Shown here: one piece after another, positions 30,888 through 55,796 of the stretch | Numbering within the stretch: the stretch's first letter is position 1 | How the letters are laid out: each line of letters opens with the position of its first letter | The notes under the pieces: model-generated | What the model was told of the DNA's origin: nothing | Database searches by the model: none | Seen by the model: only the letters and a program-made list of their open reading frames with translations | Source: Naegleria gruberi | Taxonomy: Eukaryota | Reading direction: 5' to 3' (one strand) | Assembly: GCA_000004985.1 (NCBI GenBank) | Contig: GG738882.1 | Length of the DNA stretch: 64,000 bases | Program-made: the position numbers and the translations under genes

Positions 30888-33058
30888 CTATTTGGAAATG
30901 ATATTAATATCGGAAAAGTCATTACAAGTTGTCAAGTGGATAAACAATTTCTTTCTGAGGAAATTCATATTGTGACAATAGGTTGGAGTACCTGTGAGAA
31001 AGATGGTGTGACCTCTGCCACAAGCTACATCCTTGATTGGAATATTTCTGAAAAAGTCAACACGTACAGGTCTACACACAAAGCAATTTTGTTGATTTTC
31101 ATCTTCTCTAGTATGATGATACATTCTCTCTTGAACTTCATCTGTTTTTTGAGATTGGATGTATCCTAGTTGGCCATGCTTTCCTTCTCCACCAACATAA
31201 CATTCACCACTTCTTGAAAGGAGAACACAATGATTCCATCCACAAGCAACCTTACATATTGGAATTCCATAGAGTAATTTGAGTGGATAGACAAATCGTT
31301 GAGTCTTGGTATTTCCATTTAAAAGCTGACCATATGCATTCCATCCATTCTTTAGAAAAAACATTGTTTGAAATTTGCAATTATTAATTAATACTTACTG
31401 TATACACTCTTCCATCTGATTATTAATAATTGAGTTTGTCACAATGATTGGAGTAGTATTGATTAAGATTAAAGAAAATTATCATAGAACATACCATAGG
31501 TCAAAAAGACAGAATGGAAATATCCACAAGCAACTGCACAAATCTTTTCATCTTGCAAGGAAGTTATCAAATGAGGAATCAAATGTCTATTGGAAGAATC
31601 TGTTTCTTGTGAAAACAAAGTAGGATCATTTTCAATTTCTTGAATGGAGAGCTGTCCATATTGAGTGTCTCCCATACCAAATGTTTTTCCCTCGGAGGTG
31701 ATTAATATGGAATGCCATGCTCCTGCTGCACAATCAACAATTTCCATACATGTGAATGGAATTCTGTACTTGGAACCAACTTGAATGGGTTTTTCACCAT
31801 TCCTTGTGAATTCCCTTAAAATTCTTGGAGGAGTATTGACAGGAACTTCAAATTCCTTCAATAGAGAAGGTTGATAGATTTTAAATTCATGATCCTGTGT
31901 ATTCAAACTTGCATGACTTTTAGTAACTGTTCCACTGTATTTTAATATTACATTATATGAAATATTAACATTGAAAGTAGTTTACAAAAAAACTTACCAT
32001 TGACCATACGTATTCTTTCCACACGAGGCAACAGTTCCATCACTCATTACAAATATTGAATGATATCCACCACAGCACAGTTTTGCAATACTTGGTGCTG
32101 ATATTGTCTCTTCAAACTCGTCCATGGCCAATTGATTTTTTGAAAGTTCTGCAATTAATTCCCTTCTGTCCATTTCGAAATTCCTGAAATATGTTTGAGG
32201 ATTCAACAAGATTGGTAATGTACTTGAAATGGGAGGTGTTGCTTGTTCTGTTCCCAATTGACCTTCTCTACATTCACCCCAAACATATAAGTTTCCTTTT
32301 ATAGTTAAGGCAATGCTATGATGTCCACCACAACTAATCATTTGCACAGGTTCTTGAATCAAGTTGACTCTAGTAAATTGAGTAACGTTTGAATTTTGTG
32401 ATTGACCTGCTTGATGACTGTAATTTGCTCCACAACTCCACACTTGACCATTATAAGTGAGAAGAACAGTGTGATACCAACCACAGACAATACTTTTTAC
32501 ATTTAATTTCTCATCAGCCAATTGAGGTAATGATTGATTGGATGAGTTGTTCTTATTTGATAATTCTTCGTCAGTATGAAGATGATTGGAAAGAGAATTG
32601 AGAGTTTCTCTGCAGGTGATGAGTGAATTTTCATTGGATTGTTCTTGTGTTTCTAGTTGTGTTTCTTCTCTGGAGAATAGAGTTGAGTGTTGGTGATGAT
32701 TATTAGAAACATTGGATTGATCAAATATTGGAGGTAATTTACAAGGTTCTGCAAACGAATAAAACTGAGGATAATATTGTGCTTGATGAACCGAAACTTT
32801 GGGTGTTCTAACGAGCCCTGTTTGGCCAGAAGTGTAAAGGCCACAAACGAATAATTCATTCGAAAGTGTTGGCGAATCTGATAAACTTGAATCACTACTT
32901 GTTGACGCGGTCGTTAGACTATAACTTTGAATACTCGAAGTCATAGCTATTGAATGTGTTTGTGTTTTTTTAGATAAAGATCCACTTGGTATTGATGATA
33001 TTTTCGTTTTCGTGAAACAATCCGAATTTGGAAAGAGGATTAAATTGGAAGCAATCAT
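30888..33058 (-). CDS. RCC1-repeat (regulator of chromosome condensation-like) protein, 3 exons
   Basis: Exons approx 31998..33058, 31495..31934, 30888..31393. Repeated C.GW.H...L..G.V...G.N..GQLG units (VACGWNHCVLLSRSGECYVGGEGKHGQLG). Confidence 0.7.
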
Positions 33059-33270: not shown

Positions 33271-35725
33271 TTATATTGAACTATTGGAAGAAGAAGAGGA
33301 AGATATGCTGATGGAAATATCCACTGGTGTGACTGGGAAATTATCAGAATCTTCAGTAGGTTCTTCATATTGGAGCATGAATCTAACAAATGTGTCCTTC
33401 AAGATCATATTGGTTACAACCTTTTGAAGATCATCCAGCAAGTCAACTTGGCCAAAACCTTCGATAATTCTTTTAACTATGACTTCTCGTTCCTGCTTTG
33501 AAATATTCAAAGGGGTAGGTGAGTCTTCCTTCAAATATTGGGCAATAATTTCATTTTGCTTTTTAGATCTTTCCGAGGTTCTCTTGATATTCTTATACTT
33601 GAGCACATCTTCCAAAAAGTTGAAATTCTCAGCAGAAAATTCACTTTCACAGAATTGCTTAATGAAAAGCTTGTTAAATAATTCAAGAATAACTTACTCT
33701 AAATAATTCCTTTGAACTCTTTTTTGACATTATCTTTTCAAATTCGAAAGATTGAATGGTTTCCTGTTGCTGTTTGATACTGGCCATTAATTCATGTTGC
33801 TCTTTCATATTTCTTGCAACAATTACATAGACTTCAATCATTTCTTCATTCTGAATGATGGTTACTCTGGTAGATGATAATGAAACAGGAAGTTTGTTAC
33901 CAAGGGCTGTAGACAATAATGCATCCTTTCTCGAATTGGTATTATACGAAAGAGATTCAAATAAGCCAAGAAATTGATCCGTCTCAGCAGCAAGATCACT
34001 AACAAGTAAATAATTTGAAATTGCCAAGGTATTCTTCTTGAGAATTTTCGTTTCAAATATAGTATTGAAGGTGGCAATTTCTCCATTTTTACAATCCACA
34101 GTAAAGATGAAATCAGAGATGGCATTCATGATTACTCTTGCATGCTGTTCAGAAAGGGATGTTTTCTCTAGTAACTCTTGAATTCTTTCATTCTCAGATA
34201 CAATGACTGTTTGGGATTCGTCCAATGTTTCCAACATGTTATTAACATCATCAGTCAATAATCCCAGCTCATCCTTACCCATACACTTGACTCTCTTTTT
34301 GAAATTATTGCTAATGGTGATTTCTCTAACTGATTTGGCAAAATTCATCACTCTCTTAATAACAACAACCTCCAAAAAGACCATTATTGCAAATGAGAGC
34401 AGTAAAATCATTGCTGTCATTACTGCCCAAGTAATGATGAAAGAATTGGTTCCCAAAACAAATACTCTTCTTGCAAAGTCTGTTCTAATGATAATACTGT
34501 CATTTCGTGAAATGTCATAATATTTCTGAAATGTTGCCATTCTAGATCCATAAGCATTTCCATCATCTTCAATATCTGCACAATATCTATTCTCGGTTAT
34601 AGGATAAAGATTATTTTGTTGATCAACAAAAAGTGGTTGATTGAGCTGAGCCATATTGTCTTTCCATTTTGTTACTGAACTTGAACCATTGATTAGTGTT
34701 GTTTTCCAATCCCCAACTCTTTCAGTTAAATAAGTATTGATCCATTCGTGATTTTGTTTGAAAATGTATGAGCTGCTCTCTGGAGCACTTTCTCCACTAA
34801 GAGCAATTGCTAACAAATACCTATGTCTCCAATATTCCATATTAAAGAGGGTAATACAGAGTTGAACTCTATTTGCCATATCTTGCTTGTACTCTGCAAG
34901 ATCAAATCTAGCAAACACAATCAGGCCATATGTTTTTGTATTGTAATCATAATTATCCTGTATTGGCATGCCACTCATAAGAATAATATATGAAAGCAGC
35001 TCTGTTTCTGTCATGTTGGCCATTATAGCTTGCTTCTTTTCATATGAGTTCACTAAATTTGGTAAATCTTTAAATGGAGAGAAGAAGCCGACATGTCTTG
35101 TTGAAGGTACATCAACATTCCTCAATAAACGAGCTCCTAGTTCATTTCTCGACAAATCATTGAACTCTTCTGGTAGATTATCCAAACTTATTCCCCTAAA
35201 ACATGCTCTAAAAGCGAGCAAAGTTCCATCCTTCTTATATAATATTGCAAAATTCAATTTGGAAGCCAGTTGATAATTACAATTCAAATAAGTATCCATA
35301 TATTTCTCAGTAAATGATGAGTTTGTAGCCATAACAGCATCAACAGTATCATTAAATGCTCCATATTCGCTAAGCTTTGATGTCAATGACTGAAAATCAT
35401 CAAAATAGGCCCTTGTAGTTCTCTTTGCAGCTTCTACAGAATAAGTCTGCTCAACCGAATTAAACGAAAGTAAAAAGGCAGTCACCAACACAGCCAAACA
35501 AATAGCCATCAATAACAGAAATAACACTCCAAGCACTGTCATTGTTTTAAATCTAATACTACTCAATAAAACAACATCTCTCCTATTGGATTTTAAATTC
35601 AAAGTAGATGGTGGTCTCAACTTGACAATTCGAGGACCTGTTTCCTTAGATCGTTTCATATGATATTCTCTGTAGGCTTTGTCATCTTGCCAGGGAGACT
35701 CTGAAGGAGATTGTGATTGATACAT
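33271..35725 (-). CDS. receptor-like RGS protein: TM - large extracytoplasmic domain - TM - HAMP - PAS-like - RGS; 2 exons with a 40-nt intron inside the RGS box
   Basis: Exons 33698..35725 and 33271..33657. TM1 TVLGVLFLLLMAICLAVLVTAFLL, TM2 FIITWAVMTAMILLLSFAIMVFLEVVVI. HAMP match RVMNFAKSVREITISNNFKKRVKCMGKDELGLLTDDVNNMLETL. RGS box SFEFEKIMSKKSSKELFR|QFCESEFSAENFNFLEDVLKYK. Confidence 0.7.
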
Positions 35726-38061: not shown

Positions 38062-40687
38062 TTAATCAGTACCAACTAGTTGTCTTTCCACTACTTGTTT
38101 GTAAAGACCTCCCTTTTGAAGCAGATTGAAATGCTCTCCTTGTTCCACAACTGAACCTTCCTCAATGACACAAACCTTATTGGCCTTTATCACTGTGGCA
38201 AGTTTGTGAGCTATAACGATAACAGTCCTTCCATTCATTAATGAATTGAGAGCTTGTTGAACTTGGCTGTCATATTGTACTTCTAAAGAATGAGAATATT
38301 CGTCCAAAATTAAAATCTTCGGATCCTTCAAAAGGATTCTAGCAATGGCGATTCTTTGACGTTCAGAGGCAGAAAGTCTGACTCCTCTTTCTCCAATAAT
38401 AGTATCATATCCATCTTTGAAATTAGAAATAAATTCATGAACGTTTGCCTTCTTGGATGCTTCCATAACTTGCTCGTCTGTTGGAGCTTCATCACCAGTC
38501 CATCCGTAACAAATATTTTCACGAATTGAGGCACTAAACATGGCAGGATCCTGAGTAAGGAGACCAATGTTCTTTCTCAACCAAACAGGATCAATTTGAG
38601 TAAGTGGAACACCATCCAATGTAATTTGTCCATCATTTGGATCATAGAATCTTTGTAAGAGTGAGACAATGGTGGTCTTTCCTTGTCCTGGTCTACCAAC
38701 CAAAGCCAAAATACTTGATGGTGACATTTCAAGGTTAATCTTATTGAGTACTGAGTGTTCGGTTCTTGAAGGATAGGCAAATGAAACATCGTGCAAAACA
38801 ATGTGACCATTCAATTTTGGAAGTTCTCTAGTATCGGATTCCATAACGTTTGGATTACGTCTTTCAATGGCTGGAATACGTTGAAGTAAGTTGTAAACTC
38901 TAACAGTAGCCTCCAAAGCTCTAAACAATTCAACCAGCAATCCACTCAAGACACCAAAGCTGGCAGCAACCAACAAGGTATACATGATGAAACTAATAAG
39001 AGATCCAACAGTTATTTCACCATCCACAACAAGTCTTCCACCAAACCACAAAACGAGAATAATACTAGCATTACCAGCAAACATCATACCACCTGAAAAG
39101 ATACCATTAGCAAATGAGAATTTTCTTGCCAATGAGAGAGTCAAATCAATAGCAGCACTGTACAAGCTAATATGCTTGGTTTCCTTTGCAAAACTACGAA
39201 CAGTTCTCAAATTGGAGAAGGACTCTTCAGCAACATCAGTTGAATTGGCCAAAGCATCTTGTGTTCTCCTTGTGATATTCTTAATATATTTGGCATAAAT
39301 TAAAGAAATAAAAACGAGTGGAGGTATGACAGCAAGCATGATCAGAGTCAATTTCCAAGATATTATCAATAGGAAAACAATTCCACCAATTAATTGAGCC
39401 ACATAACGTAAAAACATTGAAAGATTCACTGTAACGGCATTTTCCAATGATTTTGTATCTGAACTCAATCTATTCAACAATTCTCCAGTTTTAGTGATAT
39501 CAAAAAATCCAACTTCTTGAACAATGATGGAATTGAAAAGATCCTTTCTGAGACGGGCAACAGCACGTTCTCCAGCATATGTAAAACTATTATATTTGTA
39601 AAATATATAAATGAAATTGATTAGAAGAAACATACCAAAAGTTTCTCAATGCAGTTGTAAGGCCAATACCAGCCACAACACCTAGTATAATGAGAGCCAT
39701 TTGATTAATATATTCCTTTCCTGTAGTTCCTGCAGGGATGGTATTAATAATCTCGCCAACATAAATTGGTAGGAATAGGCTCAAACCAGTACTAACAATC
39801 AAAAATATAATTCCGAAAAAGACGAGTGGTGTTTGTCTAAATCCTAATTTCATCAACCACATAAATTGAGTAAAACTAATTCTTGGAAAGCTCTTGAAGA
39901 GTTTAGCAATGCCAGTAGCACTAACTGGATTTTCATCTATAGCATTTGGCTTTAAATAATCATTATACGTATCATCAATATGGTTATCGTAGTATAACAA
40001 TTCTCGATCGTAATCATCCTCCATGGAAATTTTGGTAGTGTTTGTAATTTCAACTTCAACATCATCACCATCTTCGAGGTTAACATTTTTCATTTCCTTG
40101 TGTTCATTGTGATTTGTTAATTTGACTTTACGATGTTCATCATAGTCTTTTTCATTTTCCTCTTCTTCCTCGCTCAGTGATGGTTCATGATGATGGTTCA
40201 GGTCAGAACCGAGACTATTACTACTGGAAGTAGTATTAGCATTTCCATTTGTAGAAGTCAGGGAACCCTTAGAGACCAGAATTTGCTTTCTCTTCGGGAG
40301 TGGTGGAGTTTCCAAATCTTGAGCCTCTTCTTCCTTATTAACATTTCCAAAACGAACACGTAACTTGGATCTATCATCTTTAAAAGCAGGTGTATTTTCT
40401 ATTGGTTCTTCATCATCCGAATCATTATTCTTCTTTGGTGTTATTGTCGAATCAACATCATGAGCAGCAGCCGTTGTTGATGGTGATGATGATTTCGATC
40501 CGTTAATTGTAGGTGATTTTTCCTTCTTTGTATGATGAGAGTCTTCATCTTGTTCTTCTTCATGATGATGATGATGCGAGGAAGAAAGTACAATATCATC
40601 CAACTCTTCCTCTAAATCTTCGTCTTCCTCATCTTCCAAAAGTCTCGATTGAGAACGCGTTTTTAACGAGCCAAGTAGTGATGGCAT
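38062..40687 (-). CDS. ABC transporter, B-family half transporter (TMD-NBD) with long acidic/His-rich N-terminal extension; 2 exons
   Basis: Exons 39636..40687 and 38062..39586, with a 49-nt intron and GTATGT donor. Walker A GRPGQGKTT, ABC signature LSASERQRIAIAR, Walker B ILILDE. Six TM helices precede the NBD. Confidence 0.85.
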
Positions 40688-42409: not shown

Positions 42410-43156
<747 letters not shown>

Positions 43157-43693: not shown

Positions 43694-44458
43694 TCAATTC
43701 ATTTCTCTTGCTTCCTTTCTAATTATTTCACTTTCATTCTTTAATAATTCTCCTACAAATTCAAGTGAAGATTCATCTTTTTTAACAGCTTGTAAAACTA
43801 TTTCTCTGTCGTTTCTTAAATTTTCAGAAGCATACTGAAGTGCTGATCCATGTTGTTTGACAGCTGTCAAGACAATTTCTCTATCATTTTGAAGTTCTTC
43901 TGAAGCATTCTTAAGAGTATCACCATGTTGTTTTACAGATGTCAATACAATTTCTCTGTCGTTTGTTAATTCTTTTGAAGCAAAGTGAATTTCATATCCA
44001 TGATGTTGGACAGCTGTCAACATTATTTCTCTGTCATTTCTCAATTCCTCAGATGCATATTGAACTGCATATCCATCCCGTCTTATAGCTGTCAAGATAA
44101 TCTCTCTATCATTTCTCAATGCATGATCAGTGACAAATTTAAGTGCATGAGCATGTGATTTGACAGCATGTAGAACTATCTCTCTATCACTTTTAAACTG
44201 TTCAGGAAGAAATTTGAGTGAAAGTCCTTCGTTCTTGACAATTGCCAATGCTACTTCTCTATCGTTACGTAATTCCTCAGAGGCACTTTCAAGTACTCTA
44301 TATCCGCAGACTTCAGCAATCCTTTTGACAACTGGCTTGTAGTTCCATAATTTTAACCTATCGGCAGTCTCTACCAATTGCTCCTCGTCATCACATTGTA
44401 AAAGATTTTGAATTATATCATCGTTGGTGGTGTCAATTTCTGTCTCTTGTCTATTCAT
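43694..44458 (-). CDS. DUF4116-like tandem-repeat protein (about 8 x 24-aa LRNDREIVLTAVKQHG.ALQYASEE units)
   Basis: 254-aa ATG ORF dominated by repeats such as ASEELRNDREIMLTAVQHHGYEIHFASKELTNDREIVLTSVKQHG. The pattern matches my recollection of the Pfam DUF4116 repeat. Sits between the two inverted tRNA-Trp genes. Confidence 0.6.
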   Translation of the reverse strand: MNRQETEIDTTNDDIIQNLLQCDDEEQLVETADRLKLWNYKPVVKRIAEVCGYRVLESASEELRNDREVALAIVKNEGLSLKFLPEQFKSDREIVLHAVKSHAHALKFVTDHALRNDREIILTAIRRDGYAVQYASEELRNDREIMLTAVQHHGYEIHFASKELTNDREIVLTSVKQHGDTLKNASEELQNDREIVLTAVKQHGSALQYASENLRNDREIVLQAVKKDESSLEFVGELLKNESEIIRKEAREMN

Positions 44459-45003: not shown

Positions 45004-46767
45004 TTATTTCCTTGACAAATTATTTGCTGATTTTCCGTTTTGATTTCCATTATTATTAGCTGCCTTCTTTTCTCTTTCCTTAATAACCTTGTCAATCTTC
45101 ATCTTTCTCTGGAATTGAACACCAAGTTTAAATCTTTGTAAAGTATCCAACATGACAACTGCAATTTCATTTTGTAAAGGTTCAAATAAATCATCAGGAA
45201 GTTGATCATTCATTTTCTTATCTGGATTGGTGACTAATTGATCAGAGTCAACTGAAAAGAGTGTGAATTCTTGTAAAAGAGCTTCAACTTGATCGGCAAA
45301 TCTCTTACTCACATTCACTGAGTTTTTACCATCCAATCTCAAAAAGTCAACCAAAATTTCATTAGCCAATTCAAATCTCTTATTACAAACAATCTTGTAC
45401 TCCTCCTCAGTGACATTCTTAATCTTTTTCTTCTTTTTGAGTGATGACTTGTTATCAGTATCATTAAATGAAAGAGCTGGATTAGTTTGAGTCTTTTTCT
45501 GAGAATTATGAGTGGTGGTACTGTGACTTCCACTGGTAATTGAGTTTTGTTTCGTTTGATTATCACCAGAGGACACACTCGAGATGGCATCAGTGTCATT
45601 TCCAGAAGTGACACTCTTGGCAGCTCCATGATCATCTGTTTCACTTGTAGAGCTAGTGTCTGTAAAGAGAATATCTTGCATTTCCCAAATTTGTCTCGAA
45701 TATTCACGATACAAATTAGTTCTAATCAAAACTTCATAATTTTCCAATGATAATTCTTGTTTACAATGTTGCTTGAATAAATCTCTCAATTTTGGATCAT
45801 TCATCACATCTAAAAGCATGACAGCTTTGGCCTTCTTTAATCTTTCTCTATTCAAAGCTTCCTTATTAAGAGCTGCCACGAATAGGAAAATCATGACAGG
45901 TAGCACAATAATAAATGCAATTATTGTCACTGAAGAAATGATAATTGTATAAATTCCCATCCAATTATCTTCAGTATCTGACAAGTAAGATGACATGTCT
46001 TCAATGATGGCAATCTTTTTTTCAAACATTTCTTTTAAACCTTCATATTCTTCTCCTTCAATAATTGCAATAGCTGTCCCAGTTGAGTTGACATCAATAA
46101 TCTGTTTCTCCAAAATTTTCAGTTTCGAATGAGCATCCATTAGTTCACTAATCACAACATTTTTATCATAATCATGATTAGCAAAATCCTCTACAGGAAT
46201 AATATTAAAAATCTCATTCAGCATACTATCAATCCAATCCTGATGTGCCTCTAAATGATTATCCAAATTATTATTCGAATGAGCACTTTGATTATTCAAA
46301 AGTTTCGTCAAGCCATCACTCGGATGCACAATAAACGAATCCTGATCGAAAATACTCCTATCACTCATATTCAAATAAGCCTTCAAATGCAACCCACTCG
46401 TAATCAACTGCTGAATAACCAACACATCTTTCGTCGTCTTGTATACGAAATTATCCACCTGCGAACGTAATACGAAAGTTTGTGGAAAGATCACTACCAA
46501 CGCAACCAACAATAACACACTCACCACAATCCCACAAACTGACAATAACTTGACCATTGAAATTCGATAGGATTTTTTCTTCTTCATTAGAAAACAACAA
46601 CAACATGAAGGAAGGACGAGATAGAAACCACGACCATTTCGACCACTTTTAGAATTGTCGTTGTTGGTTGTGGAAGAGTTGGCTGTTCCTCCTTGAACAG
46701 TGTGTTTTTCTTTGGGAAGGGAGAGGAATTGGTGAGAGGTGTCAGCTGTTGGTAATTGATTTGACAT
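45004..46767 (-). CDS. 2-TM receptor-like protein with C-terminal split RGS domain
   Basis: TM1 LLSVCGIVVSVLLLVALVVIF, about 180-aa extracytoplasmic segment, TM2 GIYTIIISSVTIIAFIIVLPVMIFLFVAAL. RGS-like halves AVMLLDVMNDPKLRDLFKQHCKQELSLENYEVLI and EEYKIVCNKRFELANEILVDFL...MLDTLQRFK are separated by a Ser/Thr-rich insert. Confidence 0.55.
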   Translation of the reverse strand: MSNQLPTADTSHQFLSLPKEKHTVQGGTANSSTTNNDNSKSGRNGRGFYLVLPSCCCCFLMKKKKSYRISMVKLLSVCGIVVSVLLLVALVVIFPQTFVLRSQVDNFVYKTTKDVLVIQQLITSGLHLKAYLNMSDRSIFDQDSFIVHPSDGLTKLLNNQSAHSNNNLDNHLEAHQDWIDSMLNEIFNIIPVEDFANHDYDKNVVISELMDAHSKLKILEKQIIDVNSTGTAIAIIEGEEYEGLKEMFEKKIAIIEDMSSYLSDTEDNWMGIYTIIISSVTIIAFIIVLPVMIFLFVAALNKEALNRERLKKAKAVMLLDVMNDPKLRDLFKQHCKQELSLENYEVLIRTNLYREYSRQIWEMQDILFTDTSSTSETDDHGAAKSVTSGNDTDAISSVSSGDNQTKQNSITSGSHSTTTHNSQKKTQTNPALSFNDTDNKSSLKKKKKIKNVTEEEYKIVCNKRFELANEILVDFLRLDGKNSVNVSKRFADQVEALLQEFTLFSVDSDQLVTNPDKKMNDQLPDDLFEPLQNEIAVVMLDTLQRFKLGVQFQRKMKIDKVIKEREKKAANNNGNQNGKSANNLSRK

Positions 46768-47222: not shown

Positions 47223-48203
47223 ATGACTTTAAACCACACCACCACCTCATCCTCGTCACACGTATTACCAACAGAAACAACGACCGTTCGCTTCTCATTA
47301 TTAAATAGTAACAGCAAAAAGTTTAACCTCGTTGATTCGAATATTTATAAAAAGAAACCTAACGGTTGTGGATGTGCTTTATGTTCATTCTTTATGAATG
47401 ATTTTCCAGAGAGTTTAAATGCCGAAGATTATGAACCTTCACGTGTTGAGCAAGTAGCAAACATTGTGACACATGGCATTCCATTAATTATACTTTCGTA
47501 TATTTTCTACTTGACCTCACATGTTGTAAATACGAAATTAGAGATGATTTCATCTGTTCTGTATTGTTCGAGTCTTTTCATTCTATTATCCATATCGACA
47601 TTGTATCATGTCATGTGTTTAATTCATGGAAAACAATCAAGTAAGACCTATTGGTTTCGAATAATTGATTATGCAACAATTTACATATTCATTGCTGCAT
47701 CCTATACACCATACTTGCTCGTAGTTGGTATTGGCCATGAAAACTTTTATGGAAAATTGATGGCTGCATTTATTTGGTTATTGGCAATATGTGGCTTGGT
47801 AAAATCATTTTCAGAAGGAAGATTGCTGGCATTTATTAATAATAATGCATTATTTAACTTGATGGGATGGGCAGCTCTACTTGCCATGCCAACCTCAATG
47901 TTTATTCATGTTCCCTTGGAGGCATTCTTGACCTTACTATTTGGAGGAATATTCTTCTCTGGTGGAGTTTATTTTCTAAAAAAGGATGGAGTCATTCCAT
48001 TTGCTCATGCAATTTGGCATATATTGTCTGTGTGTGGATTCTTGATGCATTTCTTTTCAATTTATTATTACATCTTTCAATTGGATGGATTGTTCGTTCC
48101 ACATGGAGTTTACAATTCAAAAATGGCGTATGAGCAAATTATTGAAACACTTACTGGGCAGAGAATGCCATTTGGTCATTTGCGTGTATCCCCAATACAC
48201 TAA
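47223..48203 (+). CDS. PAQR / hemolysin-III family 7-TM membrane protein
   Basis: Motifs ANIVTHGIPL, STLYH, IDYATIYIFIAASYTPY and FAHAIWHILSV fit the HlyIII/adiponectin-receptor family. Confidence 0.8.
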   Translation: MTLNHTTTSSSSHVLPTETTTVRFSLLNSNSKKFNLVDSNIYKKKPNGCGCALCSFFMNDFPESLNAEDYEPSRVEQVANIVTHGIPLIILSYIFYLTSHVVNTKLEMISSVLYCSSLFILLSISTLYHVMCLIHGKQSSKTYWFRIIDYATIYIFIAASYTPYLLVVGIGHENFYGKLMAAFIWLLAICGLVKSFSEGRLLAFINNNALFNLMGWAALLAMPTSMFIHVPLEAFLTLLFGGIFFSGGVYFLKKDGVIPFAHAIWHILSVCGFLMHFFSIYYYIFQLDGLFVPHGVYNSKMAYEQIIETLTGQRMPFGHLRVSPIH

Positions 48204-48395: not shown

Positions 48396-49891
48396 TTAAT
48401 AGTAAAGAGTGAATAAATCTTCAGAAATTTGAGTCATTTCCTTCTTCTTTTCAATATTGTCCCAATTAGACTTGAAAACATTATTGAATCCATAGATAGC
48501 TCCATACCAAGCTGCAGCAATAGTACCAGTACTGTCAGAATCACCTGCATGCAAGGCAGAGTGCAACATCATCTTTTCATAATTGTTTGGACCAGCACAC
48601 AATAAGGCATCATAGGCAATAATGCATGAATCATCACCTGATGCTCCAGCCCAACCAGCAAATGACCACTTTTTGTAATATTCATCTCTTTCAGCAATTC
48701 CATACTTCTTTGGGAATTGAGCAGAGAGTGCATTCAATTTTTGAGAATTTTTGAAATCTTCTTCACTGAGGAATAATCCTCTTTCAGATAAATATTGAGC
48801 AATCTTTTGTTCGAACTTGGTAATTTCTTCCTTCATTTCTTCCCAATCTCTTTTAGCAACCTTTTGCAAGTAGGTTCTAGTTCTTGGCATGATATCGTAC
48901 AAGAAGTAAACTCCCCATTGTGGAACTGGGATAGTTTGTTCAATAGCATAGGCTGTGAAAAGGGCAGAGACCAATGATCCCAAGAACCCATTTGGATGAT
49001 TGTGAGTCAATCTTCCTGATTCTACACTACAAGCAATGAGCATGTCACGTCTTTCAACTCCACTAATAGCTGCTCCAATAGACATGGCTCTCATCTAATT
49101 AATTCGAAATGTTAGATCAATTTAAAGAATAAAGATTATCAATTAACAACCAATGATGAAATAATACATACACTGCCACCACAACCACCTCCTCTCTTAT
49201 CGTATGGATAGAGATTCCATTTTTCAACACCACGAGATTCCAAAAATCTAACTCCCTTTCCACCTAAAAATGTCAATAATCACAAACACACAGTTAAAAC
49301 TACTACTTACAAGTTGGACCTGGAGCTCTTCCTCCCATATCATCCCAACAGATAATATATTCCTTACTCATTTCTTGCATTAATGGATCAACAAAATCGC
49401 TCATAAACTTGGCACAACTTTCAACATTATTTTCATCAAAACTATAAACCAATGTCTTGTCACTATTTGCTGCATTTCTAGCTTGCTTCATCCAGGTAAT
49501 CAATGCTCTCAAACTTGCCAAATGCATTACAGTATCATCAGAAACTCTCCATCCCTTGACATCAATTCCAGCCAAACTTCCATAATAATGTTTCAATTCA
49601 GCATGAATAGTTTCACCATCAAAATTAAATTCCCAAGCACCATTTCTATATCCTATTAATGATTAAAATTCCATCAATAACAGCAACAGAAATGATCCAA
49701 TTTGTAATAACAATGTTCATCATCATCACGAATTTTAAATATTTAATAAATAATTAAATATGATCCGATCGCGCAAATTGCCAACAACTTACCAATAGCA
49801 TCACCAACAGCACCCAAAATTACACTGGCCAACAATCGTTCAGCCAAATTGTTATTACTATTCGCAACATTGCTTGTTGTTGAAGAGATCA
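48396..49891 (-). CDS. ADP-ribosylglycohydrolase (ARH family), 4 exons; apparent 1-nt frame break in exon 2
   Basis: Exons approx 49793..49891 (ERLLASVILGAVGDAIG), 49311..49651 (YRNGAWEFN / FDGETIHAELKHYYGSLAGIDVKGWRVSDDTVMHLA), 49172..49263, 48396..49094. Collinear with ARH1 across AAGDALGYYNGKWEF...RWRVSDDTVMHLA, with GDSDSTG near the C-terminus. The frame shifts at the A-run near 49621-49624. Confidence 0.65.
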
Positions 49892-54353: not shown

Positions 54354-55796
54354 TCAAACATTATTTCCCTCAATTCCTTCCTTAACCTCCGAATGATGCA
54401 CAACTTTTCCCTTCTCACTTTCTGCCACTTTCTTCCTACCTTTCTTCCCAACTTTCTCCTTCAAATTCGAAGGAGTCTTGAACAACCTCTGAACCTCTCT
54501 CAACGGTGAAATCAACACCAATTGAATAATCAAAAATCCCAAAATTGCAATATTCGAAAAGCAATGATAAAACAACAATGAAAATTGCCATCCAGTTGCT
54601 CCAGGTAGAAATGCCAATCCCAATAATTGGATGAAAAAGCAAATTGTTAATCCAATTTGAAGTCCAAGAGATTTTCGAAGTGCCTTCTTTTTGAGTTGAT
54701 AAGTATTGTCGATTTCTTGGTTTGTCTTGTTGACAGATTTGGAAAATGACTTGTCAATAACATGTGAAGTGAGGGATTGGTCTTTTTTAGTTGGGGATTG
54801 GATGCTGTTGGCGTCTGGAATGGGAGTGGTTGGGGTGATGTCAATGTTTTGATGTTTGCTGTCATGTGAAGAAGCACTTTTGACATTGTCACTTGTGCTT
54901 GTCAAATCTTCGAGTTCATAAGGTTGAGCAGTTGAGGAACCACCCTCTTCCAAGTGATGTGTCGTTCTCTTCATCATTTCTCTAATTTTCTTCTTACTTG
55001 CTTTGAGAGCTCTGTATAATCTGAAACCATAAGTCTATTCGAAATTATTCGAAAAGTTACAATGAAGAAATTCAACAATTACTTACATTCATAAAGATTG
55101 CAGTGGCTACCATTCCCATAAACATAATAACCATTGGAGTGATAAAGATTACGATGGATAATTGCTGTTGACTAATTGGTGAAATTCCACTTCCTCTCAA
55201 ACCATGTAAAACTGCAATAACTAAAATGTGACCAAGAAAGAATAACACAAAAAAGATGATTAGGAGAGAGATGAGAAGGTATTTGGATGCTTTGAATTCC
55301 TTTTCGGTTATATAGTTGGTCAAACGAGTAGTTTTTAAACTAGACGAAAATGAATCGAATAAAAATTTGTGAAAACTTACAAGACAAATCCAATAAAACC
55401 CATGATTAAAATTTGATTATACAACAAGACTGCACTCATTGATCTATCAATACCCTTAATTACATTATTCAAGTCAAATGCCACTCTATAAATCGGATTA
55501 AGAAATGACAATTCACTTGACAATCTCGTGACATTTTGAAAGAATGAAAAGAAAGCCAAAGCAATATTCATCCAATACAAGATGTGCTGATTCCGTTTCA
55601 ATTGTCGAAATTGAATAATATAATACACCAACAGAACAACAAAGAAAATTAAAAAAATAAAAATTGGACCTCCGTCAATTCCTGCCACTAATTGACTGTA
55701 CAAGTCAAATGAGAAGGAGGTTGCGTTCTGTGACTGGGTTTGTTGGATTACATATGCATCTTGAAGAAAATCATCTCCAATATTTCTGAATGTCAT
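54354..55796 (-). CDS. multi-pass membrane protein with 7-TM, GPCR-like topology and long third loop; 3 exons
   Basis: Exons approx 55381..55796, 55087..55339, 54354..55034, with two GTAAGT donors. Seven hydrophobic helices; about 150-aa polar loop between TM5 and TM6. Confidence 0.45.

What the first reader, a model, noticed from the sequence alone, without database searches (positions are those of the whole stretch)
45004..46767. Second receptor-like RGS gene with a split RGS box; nearby 7-TM gene
This is an independent 2-TM protein with an extracytoplasmic segment of about 180 aa. Its C-terminal RGS domain is interrupted by a Ser/Thr-rich low-complexity insert of about 90 aa. Two membrane-anchored RGS proteins within 12 kb, plus a 7-TM GPCR-like gene at 54354..55796, point to a local concentration of G-protein signalling components.
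Basis: partly seen in the sequence, partly recalled or inferred. Interest (0 to 1): 0.5.

Follow-up and report, generated by a model that had tools for sequence, protein, structure and literature searches.

The report
Two-pass membrane RGS with split box
This Naegleria gruberi gene encodes a membrane protein with an outward-facing four-helix bundle shaped like a bacterial chemoreceptor sensor and an inward-facing G-protein "off-switch" (RGS) domain interrupted by a floppy Ser/Thr-rich loop; it belongs to a large amoeba-specific family, so it is real and mildly novel, but not a gene cluster.

Summary
Window 45004..46767 (-) is one uninterrupted 587-codon ORF, identical to a Naegleria gruberi "predicted protein". 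It has two hydrophobic helices (about residues 72-94 and 270-299), a loop of about 175 aa between them, and a C-terminal RGS domain split by a disordered Ser/Thr-rich insert of about 80-87 aa.

Both RGS halves are recognised and belong to one domain. Pfam RGS scores 23.7 bits on the native protein (cut-off 23.9) and 28.1 bits as one stretch once the insert is removed. A family profile matches RGS10 in two collinear pieces. The AlphaFold model's top-ranked solved matches are almost all RGS structures.

The insert is not an intron artefact. The gene belongs to a family of at least 66 sequence clusters in Naegleria and Willaertia with the same architecture, and a variable insert (0-87 aa, median 34) sits at the same loop.

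New here: the outer loop folds as a four-helix bundle continuous with both membrane helices. Its best structural matches are bacterial chemoreceptor and histidine-kinase sensor domains, by fold only.

Most likely it is a receptor-like GTPase-activating protein for G-alpha subunits. The "local concentration of G-protein signalling" reading is weak: N. gruberi has 229 RGS proteins, the two neighbouring RGS genes share only the RGS box, and the 7-TM gene matches no GPCR family.

The parts
45004..46767 (-). Complete intron-less CDS (587 codons plus stop) of the 2-TM RGS protein
   Evidence: ORF list. It is 100% identical to the N. gruberi predicted protein P0001. The stop-to-stop frame leaves only 2 codons upstream of the ATG.
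46570..46767 (-). Cytoplasmic N-terminal tail (res 1-66). It is Ser/Thr/Asn-rich and ends in a Cys cluster C55-C58 (46594..46605) and KKKK, just before TM1.
   Evidence: Sequence. A conserved 'TCCG..EL' motif sits at the same place in the family consensus. Palmitoylation of the Cys cluster is inferred only.
46486..46554 (-). TM1 (res about 72-94)
   Evidence: Hydropathy peak of 3.1. The net charge is +5 before it and 0 after it.
45961..46485 (-). Extracytoplasmic domain (res about 95-269), predicted to be an up-down four-helix bundle. Its first helix continues TM1 and its last helix continues into TM2. A loop at about res 135-153 is specific to this gene.
45871..45960 (-). TM2 (res about 270-299), with Pro290 invariant in the family
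   Evidence: Hydropathy peak of 3.2. P290 is invariant in 33 of 33 aligned members. In two overlapping models the helix runs unbroken from the ectodomain through TM2 to about res 323.
45649..45822 (-). RGS box, N-terminal half (res about 316-373; helices alpha1-alpha4, with alpha4 extended)
   Evidence: Pfam RGS profile positions 4-40. The family profile aligns to RGS10 residues 12-57. Model helices have pLDDT above 90.
45409..45648 (-). Ser/Thr-rich disordered insert in the alpha4-alpha5 loop (res about 374-453), ending in KKKKKIK
   Evidence: Composition. The segment is non-helical, with pLDDT mostly below 50. Insert length at this site varies from 0 to 87 aa across the family.
45088..45408 (-). 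RGS box, C-terminal half (res about 454-560; alpha5-alpha9). It contains a second small insertion in the alpha6-alpha7 loop (res about 508-520, 45208..45246).
   Evidence: Pfam RGS profile positions 44-100. The family profile aligns to RGS10 residues 50-133. The family alignment shows the extra 13-14 residues.
45007..45087 (-). Basic, Asn-rich C-terminal tail (res 561-587)
   Evidence: Sequence. Only 7% identical to the closest relative.
33271..35725 (-). Neighbouring, unrelated receptor-like RGS gene (804 aa after splicing out the intron at 33658..33697). It has two hydrophobic segments seen by eye in the translation (no hydropathy scan was run on it), a CHASE4-like outer domain, HAMP, and a canonical unsplit RGS box.
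   Evidence: RGS scores 73.8 bits. CHASE4 (22.9 bits) and HAMP (21.8 bits) fall below their Pfam cut-offs.
54354..55796 (-). Orphan 7-TM protein gene (3 exons, 449 aa, long third cytoplasmic loop). It is context only and not shown to be a GPCR.
   Evidence: Splice model. No Pfam family matches. An N. lovaniensis orthologue has 46% identity over 98% coverage.
47223..48203 (+). PAQR/HlyIII-family 7-TM protein, the divergently transcribed neighbour (context only)
   Evidence: Pfam HlyIII, 78.5 bits.

Best explanation
Architecture (shown by computation). The gene encodes a type of receptor-like RGS protein. The parts in order are:
- a cytoplasmic tail with a Cys cluster;
- TM1;
- an extracytoplasmic four-helix bundle of about 175 aa;
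- TM2;
- a helix that runs without a break from TM2 into helix alpha1 of an RGS domain.

RGS domain (shown). It keeps the residues that in RGS4 touch G-alpha. The RGS4 numbering is recalled from memory. The equivalents of RGS4 S85, E87, N88, N128, D163, S164 and R167 are S340, E342, N343, N485, D541, T542 and R545. The domain is interrupted in the alpha4-alpha5 loop by a disordered Ser/Thr-rich segment of about 80 aa that ends in a poly-Lys patch. A second small insertion sits in the alpha6-alpha7 loop. By the topology of the RGS bundle (recalled, not measured on the model), both loops lie at the end of the bundle opposite the G-alpha-binding face. This would explain why they tolerate insertions.

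Function (inferred). The protein probably acts as a membrane-resident GTPase-activating protein for one or more Naegleria G-alpha subunits. Some of these are self-activating in N. fowleri, so signalling there is gated at the GTP-hydrolysis step. In this it would resemble 7TM-RGS proteins. The outer bundle would be the sensor, probably working as a dimer. Ligand-induced movement of TM2, which carries an invariant proline, would be passed through the rigid TM2-alpha1 helix and change the orientation or availability of the RGS domain at the membrane.

Insert (speculative). It most likely serves as a flexible regulatory loop: a phosphorylatable acidic Ser/Thr tract next to a basic, membrane-binding patch. 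Its length evolves freely, and this gene carries the longest version in the family.
For: Single gene: one ORF, identical to the deposited protein.

Topology: hydropathy, positive-inside charges and sequon enrichment agree.

RGS identity:
- Pfam gives 28.1 bits as one stretch once the insert is removed.
- 30 of 33 family members hit Pfam RGS at E<=0.01, best 2.1e-9.
- The family profile matches RGS10 at E 7e-5 in two collinear pieces. Most of the 40 PDB sequences listed at E<=10 are RGS proteins; the exceptions are four TAF1 entries and two SGTA-like TPR entries.
- hhalign against the canonical RGS box of the neighbouring gene gives 97.2% probability, E 3.4e-11.
- A family HMM finds exactly these two loci in the window.
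- The AlphaFold2 model has 154 residues at pLDDT>=90.
- Foldseek ranks 1-41 are RGS-domain structures (RGS proteins plus SNX13 and EhRGS-RhoGEF), spanning both halves, with probability about 1.0 for the best and TM-score (target) up to 0.78, including RGS4-Gi-alpha1, 1agr.

Contact-residue columns are the best conserved in the family. N at the N88 and N128 equivalents occurs in 37/55 each, D163 equivalent in 40/55, R167 equivalent in 38/55 (R) plus 7/55 (K), and F168 equivalent in 53/55.

The insert is coding and family-wide. The closest relative has 86 aa at this site against 87 here, with recognisable shared motifs.

Ectodomain fold. A continuous TM2-alpha1 helix appears in two overlapping models.

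Biological context: N. fowleri has self-activating G-alpha subunits and membrane RGS proteins with demonstrated GAP activity (PMC9283941).
Against: No experiment bears on this protein.
- The native sequence falls 0.2 bits below Pfam's RGS gathering score. Single-sequence searches against PDB find no RGS.
- Foldseek E-values for the RGS model are only 0.1-1, because the alignment must bridge the insert.
- The ectodomain has no conserved ligand-binding motif that I could identify. It is the fastest-evolving part, at 23% identity to the nearest relative.
- Low-complexity insertions are common in Naegleria proteins, for example Nf G-alpha6, so the insert may have no function.
Confidence: 0.6

Rival explanations
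1. Constitutively active, membrane-tethered GAP. The two membrane helices and the outer bundle only anchor or dimerise the RGS domain at the membrane and sense nothing. Regulation, if any, works through expression level or through the cytoplasmic insert.
For: The ectodomain shows no sequence-level relationship to any ligand-binding family. It has very few conserved positions: only one invariant and one nearly invariant column in A3, and the invariant one, P233 in alignment numbering, is the TM2 proline P290. It is 23% identical to the closest relative.
Against: A fold of about 175 aa and its spacing (TM1-TM2 distance about 165-185 aa) are kept across at least 55 diverged members. A few positions are conserved (motif G-N-x3-A-x3-L-x-S-x2-Y). 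Sequon enrichment indicates a surface-exposed glycoprotein. Rapid ectodomain divergence combined with a conserved output domain is what expanded receptor families typically show (my inference).
Confidence: 0.22
2. The RGS-homology domain has lost GAP function and acts as a scaffold or G-alpha effector-type binding module, as in GRK, axin or RhoGEF RH domains. The large insert would be a sign of this relaxed constraint.
For: The Pfam score is marginal. The conserved Trp of the 'ENxxFW' motif is replaced (EN-Y-E-V-L here; EN-F-x-F/L-L in the family). The more distant family members lose the Asn equivalents, which are present in only 37 of 55.
Against: This protein retains all the G-alpha-contact equivalents checked. 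The RGS halves are its most conserved parts, at 65% and 46% identity to the nearest relative. The neighbouring canonical RGS box also lacks the Trp (ENFNFLED). By recalled topology, not measured on the model, both insertions lie away from the G-alpha-binding face. N. fowleri RGS domains tested so far use the canonical interface.
Confidence: 0.12
3. Artefact. The 'insert' is a retained or unannotated intron, or two genes have been fused, so the split RGS box does not exist in the mature protein.
For: The neighbouring RGS gene does have a short intron inside its RGS box. Frame +1 of the insert is also open, so the absence of stop codons alone is weak evidence.
Against: There is no GTAAG or GTATG donor in or near the insert, and its GC content (0.385) is above that of the flanking CDS (0.339). 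Introns seen in this window are 40-52 nt and begin with GTAAGT. Inserts of the same character at the same loop occur in paralogues and orthologues from N. fowleri, N. lovaniensis, Willaertia magna and metagenome assemblies, with conserved flanking motifs and a poly-Lys end.
Confidence: 0.02
4. The window holds a functional cluster of G-protein signalling genes (two RGS receptors plus a GPCR) that are co-regulated or act in one pathway.
For: Two receptor-like RGS genes lie about 11 kb apart. Two 7-TM genes (PAQR and an orphan) lie within 9 kb of the second RGS gene.
Against: With 229 RGS proteins in N. gruberi, the chance of a neighbour within +/-12 kb is about 12.5%. The two RGS proteins share only the RGS box. 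The orphan 7-TM protein hits no GPCR profile. PAQR proteins are not established G-protein couplers (my knowledge). The genes in between are unrelated housekeeping types: WD40, ABC transporter, ubiquitin and phosphoribosyltransferase.
Confidence: 0.04

Closest known systems
7TM-RGS receptor-GAPs (Arabidopsis AtRGS1; the 28 N. fowleri 7TM-RGS proteins, Bosch et al. 2022, PMC9283941)
   Same: An integral membrane protein with an outward-facing part and a C-terminal cytoplasmic RGS box. It occurs in an organism whose G-alpha subunits can self-activate, so a membrane GAP is the plausible regulated step. The canonical G-alpha-contact residues are kept.
   Different: It has two membrane helices, not seven. 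The sensor candidate is a folded extracytoplasmic four-helix bundle rather than a heptahelical bundle with EGF/lectin/GPS N-termini. TM2 runs as one helix into the RGS domain. The RGS box carries a large insert.
Bacterial 4HB sensor modules of chemoreceptors and histidine kinases (Tar, Tsr, MCP2201, Vc1313, PcaY, HK9, NarQ, QseE)
   Different: There is no detectable sequence relationship. The protein is eukaryotic and probably glycosylated. The output is an RGS domain instead of HAMP plus a kinase-control or kinase domain. No HAMP domain lies between TM2 and the output. Homology as opposed to convergence is unresolved.
Yeast Sst2 / Aspergillus FlbA-type RGS boxes interrupted by linkers (recalled from the early RGS literature, not tested here). 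Sst2 Ser539 is phosphorylated by Fus3 (PMC9394524).
   Same: The RGS box is broken into conserved blocks by non-conserved, phosphorylatable linker sequence, while in Sst2 the domain remains a functional GAP.
   Different: Sst2 is a soluble DEP-domain protein recruited by a GPCR tail, whereas this protein is itself membrane-integral and has no DEP domain. Whether the insertion point is the same loop was not checked. That Ser539 lies inside the Sst2 insert is my recollection.
The neighbouring gene at 33271..35725 (-): CHASE4-like / HAMP / RGS
   Same: It is also a receptor-like protein with a folded outer domain and a C-terminal RGS box. Its two hydrophobic segments were seen by eye in the translation, not by a hydropathy scan. 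The RGS boxes are homologous (hhalign E 3.4e-11).
   Different: It has a different outer domain, and a HAMP plus a long linker before the RGS. Its RGS box is unsplit at the protein level, being interrupted only by a 40-nt intron in the DNA. There is no similarity outside the RGS box.

Membership tests
RGS domain (Pfam PF00615) | Profile-HMM match at or above the curated gathering score (23.9 bits) | tested here: inconclusive
   The native protein scores 23.7 bits in two stretches, 0.2 bits short. With residues 371-444 removed it scores 28.1 bits in one stretch over profile positions 4-100 of 117. At E<=0.01, 30 of 33 family members match, best 2.1e-9.
RGS domain (Pfam PF00615) | Both halves align collinearly to one RGS box of a solved structure or a canonical RGS | tested here: met
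   The family profile matches RGS10 (2i59) at E 7e-5. Profile positions 20-65 align to RGS10 residues 12-57, and positions 110-199 to residues 50-133. hhalign against the canonical RGS box of the neighbouring gene gives 97.2% probability, E 3.4e-11.
RGS domain (Pfam PF00615) | All-helical RGS fold (terminal plus bundle subdomains) | tested here: met
   AlphaFold2 model with 154 of 277 residues at pLDDT>=90. Foldseek ranks 1-41 are RGS-domain structures (RGS proteins plus SNX13 and EhRGS-RhoGEF), with TM-score (target) 0.62-0.78 for the best and alignments of 227-251 columns that span the insert. This rests on a prediction, not an experimental structure.
RGS domain (Pfam PF00615) | G-alpha-contact residues (RGS4 S85, E87, N88, N128, D163, S164, R167; numbering recalled from the RGS4-Gi-alpha1 structure) | tested here: met
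   S340, E342, N343, N485, D541, T542 and R545 occupy the corresponding columns. These are among the most conserved columns of the family.
RGS domain (Pfam PF00615) | GTPase-accelerating activity on a G-alpha subunit | not testable with these tools
   This needs a biochemical assay. N. fowleri membrane RGS domains do have this activity (PMC9283941).
7TM-RGS receptor-GAPs (AtRGS1 type) | Seven transmembrane helices N-terminal to the RGS box | tested here: not met
   Only two hydrophobic segments are present, and the same holds across the family. The protein is therefore not a member, although it may work in a similar way.
7TM-RGS receptor-GAPs (AtRGS1 type) | C-terminal cytoplasmic RGS box on an integral membrane protein | tested here: met
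4HB_MCP sensor module (Pfam PF12729 and relatives) | TM1, four-helix bundle, TM2 topology with the bundle outside the cell | tested here: met
4HB_MCP sensor module (Pfam PF12729 and relatives) | Sequence-profile membership | tested here: not met
   This protein has no hit. Three of 32 relatives hit 4HB_MCP_1 only at E>=0.051. The family profile finds no sensor domain among PDB sequences.
4HB_MCP sensor module (Pfam PF12729 and relatives) | Dimeric ligand binding that displaces TM2 | not testable with these tools
   Inferred by analogy only.
G-protein-coupled receptor (for the 7-TM gene at 54354..55796) | Seven TM helices | tested here: met
   Seven hydrophobic segments are seen by eye in the spliced 449-aa model (no hydropathy scan was run on it), which is colinear with the N. 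lovaniensis orthologue.
G-protein-coupled receptor (for the 7-TM gene at 54354..55796) | Match to any known GPCR family profile | tested here: not met
   No Pfam GPCR family matches at E<=1. The only homologues found are unnamed Naegleria proteins without Pfam domains.
Sst2/FlbA-type RGS proteins | DEP domains N-terminal to an interrupted RGS box | tested here: not met
   There is no DEP hit at E<=10. The N-terminal part is membrane helices plus an ectodomain.

The most novel reading that the evidence does not exclude
The Naegleria/Willaertia family may be a distinct class of eukaryotic receptor. A bacterial-style periplasmic four-helix-bundle sensor, possibly acquired from bacteria, would be wired through a continuous TM2 helix directly to an RGS domain. 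Extracellular ligands would then switch heterotrimeric G proteins OFF without any 7-TM protein. The conserved acidic-Ser/Thr-then-poly-Lys insert would act as a phospho-regulated electrostatic latch that docks the RGS bundle on the membrane or releases it.
Probability: 0.2. Interest if true: 0.7.

Novelty: new variant of a known kind. Interest (0 to 1): 0.4.

Why it matters
Receptor-GAP signalling is established for plant AtRGS1. In it the regulated step is GTP hydrolysis by a membrane RGS protein rather than nucleotide exchange by a GPCR. It was recently extended to N. fowleri 7TM-RGS proteins.

This gene and its family suggest that heterolobosean amoebae also built receptor-like GAPs on a different chassis, a two-helix membrane anchor with a chemoreceptor-like outer bundle. 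That would widen the range of ways eukaryotes couple extracellular sensing to G proteins. It also adds candidate surface proteins in the genus that includes the pathogen N. fowleri.

There is a practical point as well. The insert pushes the protein just under Pfam's RGS threshold, so it is deposited as a domain-less "predicted protein". Counts of RGS genes in Naegleria (229 reported) are therefore probably underestimates.

The claim of a signalling gene cluster does not matter, because it is not supported.

Tried and rejected
- Single-sequence searches of the whole protein and of the insert-deleted RGS region against PDB sequences found no RGS. Only profiles did.
- The word-indexed homologue search returned only the protein itself. 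With the ectodomain profile it returned a single unnamed hit. The exhaustive HMMER search was needed to find the family.
- The full-length family profile against PDB gave only E 0.25-0.7 for RGS proteins. Restricting the profile to the RGS region improved this to 7e-5.
- BLASTP between the two RGS genes of the window found nothing, so tandem duplication is rejected.
- Intron hypothesis for the insert: I looked for GT..AG pairs and strong donors. Of 171 GT..AG combinations, 37 are in frame, but none has a GTAAG, GTATG, GTAAA, GTAAT or GTGAG donor. This was rejected together with the comparative evidence. The 'no stop codons' argument was downgraded because frame +1 is open too.
- The ectodomain profile against PDB sequences and Pfam gave no sensor family, so homology to bacterial 4HB sensors is not claimed.
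- Pfam on the spliced 7-TM protein gave no GPCR family.
- The Anantharaman et al. 2011 paper on RGS architectures could not be read. Whether it already describes this 2-TM family is therefore unknown.
- A literature search for 4HB_MCP + eukaryote + RGS found nothing.
Full report
**Source and gene model.** The window is AT-rich (about 33-35% GC). The ORF at 45004..46767 (-) encodes 587 aa. It is 100% identical over its full length to a protein deposited as 'predicted protein [Naegleria gruberi]', which carries no precomputed Pfam domain. The stop-to-stop frame extends only two codons beyond the ATG, so the gene is a single exon as annotated.

**Topology.**
- A 19-residue hydropathy scan gives exactly two strong peaks, with cores at residues 72-94 and 270-299.
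- Net charge is +5 just before TM1, 0 after it, -5 before TM2 and +4 after it. By the positive-inside rule, both termini are cytoplasmic and residues 95-269 are outside.
- N-glycosylation sequons in the corresponding loops of 32 family members number 103 against 56 +/- 7 expected from composition, and 0 of 1000 shuffles reach 103. The RGS cores show 28 against 29.5.

**RGS box.**
- On the native protein Pfam RGS scores 23.7 bits in two stretches. This is 0.2 bits below the gathering score and explains the domain-less annotation.
- The N half alone covers profile positions 4-40 (14.6 bits). The C half alone covers 44-100 (17.6 bits). With residues 371-444 deleted in silico the match becomes one stretch over positions 4-100 at 28.1 bits.
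- Single-sequence searches of PDB found nothing, so I looked for relatives.

**The family.**
- An exhaustive phmmer search of 1.84 billion representatives found 66 clusters at E<=1e-3, of which 42 are at E<=1e-10.
- Cluster look-ups place them in N. gruberi, N. fowleri, N. lovaniensis and Willaertia magna, plus unnamed metagenome or assembly contigs. Several are auto-named 'RGS domain-containing protein'. One N. gruberi member is named 'RGS and transmembrane domain-containing protein'.
- Almost all members share the same plan: a Ser/Thr/Asn-rich tail; a 'TCCG..EL' motif; TM1; a loop of 165-185 aa; TM2 with an invariant proline; 'AINRD'; and then the RGS box.
- Thirty of 33 aligned members hit Pfam RGS at E<=0.01.
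- A profile of the RGS region matches RGS10 at E 7e-5 in two collinear pieces. Most other PDB sequences listed are RGS proteins; four TAF1 entries and two SGTA-like TPR entries are the exceptions.
- hhalign against the canonical RGS box of the neighbouring gene gives 97.2% probability, E 3.4e-11.
- An HMM of the family finds only these two loci in the six-frame translation of the window.

**Structure of the cytoplasmic part.**
- AlphaFold2 with the 30-sequence alignment gives mean pLDDT 78, with 154 of 277 residues at or above 90. A non-helical, low-confidence stretch corresponds to residues 374-453.
- Foldseek against PDB returns RGS-domain structures at ranks 1-41, among them RGS1, SNX13, RGS16, RGS17, RGS8, RGS3, RGS2, EhRGS-RhoGEF, RGS7, RGS9 and RGS4-Gi-alpha1. 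For the best hits the probability is about 1.0 and TM-scores normalised to the target are 0.62-0.78. The alignments of 227-251 columns bridge the insert. E-values are only 0.1-1 because of that bridge.
- The two halves thus form one RGS fold.
- Helix alpha4 is extended (model helix 46-78), and alpha5 starts early (159-181). The insert sits on a helical stalk in the alpha4-alpha5 loop.
- A second insertion of 13-14 residues, specific to this gene and its nearest relative, lies in the alpha6-alpha7 loop.
- From the known RGS4 topology (my knowledge of the 1agr structure), the alpha3-alpha4, alpha5-alpha6 and alpha7-alpha8 loops form the G-alpha-binding face. The alpha4-alpha5 and alpha6-alpha7 loops lie at the opposite end, which would explain why insertions are tolerated there.
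- The residues aligned with RGS4 S85, E87, N88, N128, D163, S164 and R167 are S340, E342, N343, N485, D541, T542 and R545. These columns are among the best conserved in the family.

**The insert.**
- Residues 369-452 are 35-36% Ser+Thr and end in KKKKKIK.
- The insert has no strong splice donor, and its GC content (0.385) exceeds that of the rest of the CDS (0.339). The introns I could define in this window are 40-52 nt and begin with GTAAGT.
- The lack of stop codons is weak evidence on its own, because frame +1 is also open.
- The comparative evidence is decisive. In 55 near-complete family members the segment between the conserved blocks ranges from 0 to 87 aa, with a median of 34. In the closer members it has a recurring pattern: an acidic Ser/Thr-rich tract followed by poly-Lys and 'G-F/Y-T-E-K-D-L'.
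- This gene has the longest insert. Its nearest relative, a metagenome protein with 39% identity overall, has 86 aa with recognisable shared motifs.
- The insert is therefore a real, coding, fast-evolving loop and not an artefact.
- Its function is unknown. I consider a phospho-regulated or membrane-binding loop the most likely role, with 'neutral low-complexity expansion' a serious alternative. Such insertions occur in other Naegleria signalling proteins, for example Nf G-alpha6.

**The outer domain.**
- AlphaFold2 on residues 58-306 with 32 relatives gives pLDDT 84.4 and pTM 0.72. The model is an up-down four-helix bundle whose first helix continues TM1 and whose last helix continues through TM2.
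- The overlapping cytoplasmic model continues that helix to about residue 323, the start of the RGS box.
- Foldseek puts Tar, Tsr and Vc1313 first.
- At the sequence level there is no support. The profile finds no such domain in PDB. Pfam 4HB_MCP_1 appears only at E>=0.05, in 3 of 32 relatives.
- I therefore describe the architecture as chemoreceptor-like but do not claim membership or bacterial ancestry.

**Context and mechanism.**
- Bosch et al. 2022 report 13 G-alpha subunits in N. fowleri, some of them self-activating. They also report 28 7TM-RGS proteins and 79 further RGS proteins. Isolated 7TM-RGS domains accelerate GTP hydrolysis through the canonical interface.
- De Mendoza et al. 2014 count 229 RGS proteins in N. 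gruberi and note that RGS domains are fused to TM segments in most lineages.
- In such a system a membrane RGS protein with a folded outer domain is most simply a receptor-like GAP. This is inference.
- The RGS halves are the most conserved parts against the nearest relative (65% and 46% identity). The ectodomain is the least conserved (23%). This is the pattern expected of a conserved output with a diversifying sensor.

**The 'local concentration' claim.**
- The other RGS gene (33271..35725, -) is real. After removal of a 40-nt intron that interrupts its RGS box, it encodes 804 aa with weak CHASE4 and HAMP matches and an RGS match of 73.8 bits.
- It shares only the RGS box with the gene studied here.
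- The 7-TM gene is supported as a three-exon, 449-aa model colinear with an N. lovaniensis orthologue. The deposited N. gruberi model looks wrong. The protein matches no GPCR profile.
- The immediate divergent neighbour is a PAQR/HlyIII 7-TM protein.
- The genes in between are unrelated. I see no evidence for a functional cluster.

**Verdict.** The gene is a member of a Vahlkampfiid-specific family of 2-TM, four-helix-bundle, split-RGS proteins. This is a new variant of the known receptor-like RGS theme. Its interest is moderate, and the family-level architecture matters more than this locus or its genomic neighbourhood.

Noticed in passing
window 47223..48203 (+): A PAQR/HlyIII-family 7-TM protein (Pfam 78.5 bits) is transcribed divergently from the RGS gene, across a 455-bp spacer.
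   Followed up: partly
window 33271..35725 (-), intron 33658..33697: The neighbouring receptor-like RGS gene has a 40-nt GTAAGT..AG intron exactly inside its RGS box. The outer domain gives sub-threshold CHASE4 (22.9 bits) and HAMP (21.8 bits) matches, making it a bacterial-type sensor/HAMP module fused to RGS.
   Followed up: partly
window 54354..55796 (-): The deposited N. gruberi model for this locus (P0076, 476 aa) starts at an internal Met and continues into unrelated sequence. A 3-exon, 449-aa 7-TM model is colinear with the N. lovaniensis orthologue P0075 (46% identity, 98% coverage). The public annotation is therefore probably wrong.
   Followed up: yes
window 43694..44458 (-): A 254-aa protein made of about seven repeats of 'NDREIVLxAVKxxGxALxxAS'. 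By eye it looks like DUF4116-type repeats.
   Followed up: no
window 38062..40687 (-): An ABC transporter (ABC_membrane plus ABC_tran) is split into two overlapping ORFs, 39590..40687 and 38062..39633. This implies a short intron or a frameshift.
   Followed up: no
window 48396..49094 (-): An ADP-ribosylglycohydrolase ORF covers only profile positions 127-284, so an upstream exon is probably missing from the ORF.
   Followed up: no
window 42467..43156 (+): A tri-ubiquitin (polyubiquitin) gene.
   Followed up: no
window 45339..45707 (-), frame +1 of the insert: A 122-aa ORF is open in a second frame across the insert. This looks like a composition effect (A/C-rich, T-poor coding strand) rather than an overlapping gene.
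   Followed up: partly
window 45898..45900 (-), residue P290; family alignment A1: A proline in TM2 is invariant in 33 of 33 family members. A 'TCCG..EL' Cys motif precedes TM1 (CCCC, residues 55-58, in this protein). These are candidates for a signalling kink and a palmitoylation site.
   Followed up: no
P0030 (1302 aa) and P0026 (1144 aa), family members: Some family members are much longer. P0030 has extra hydrophobic segments, which may reflect merged tandem copies. P0026 has a long low-complexity N-terminal extension.
   Followed up: no
window 30888..33058 (-): ORFs with repeated 'GxxGQLG' and 'CGxxHS' motifs look like RCC1-type repeats split by introns. This is by eye only.
   Followed up: no
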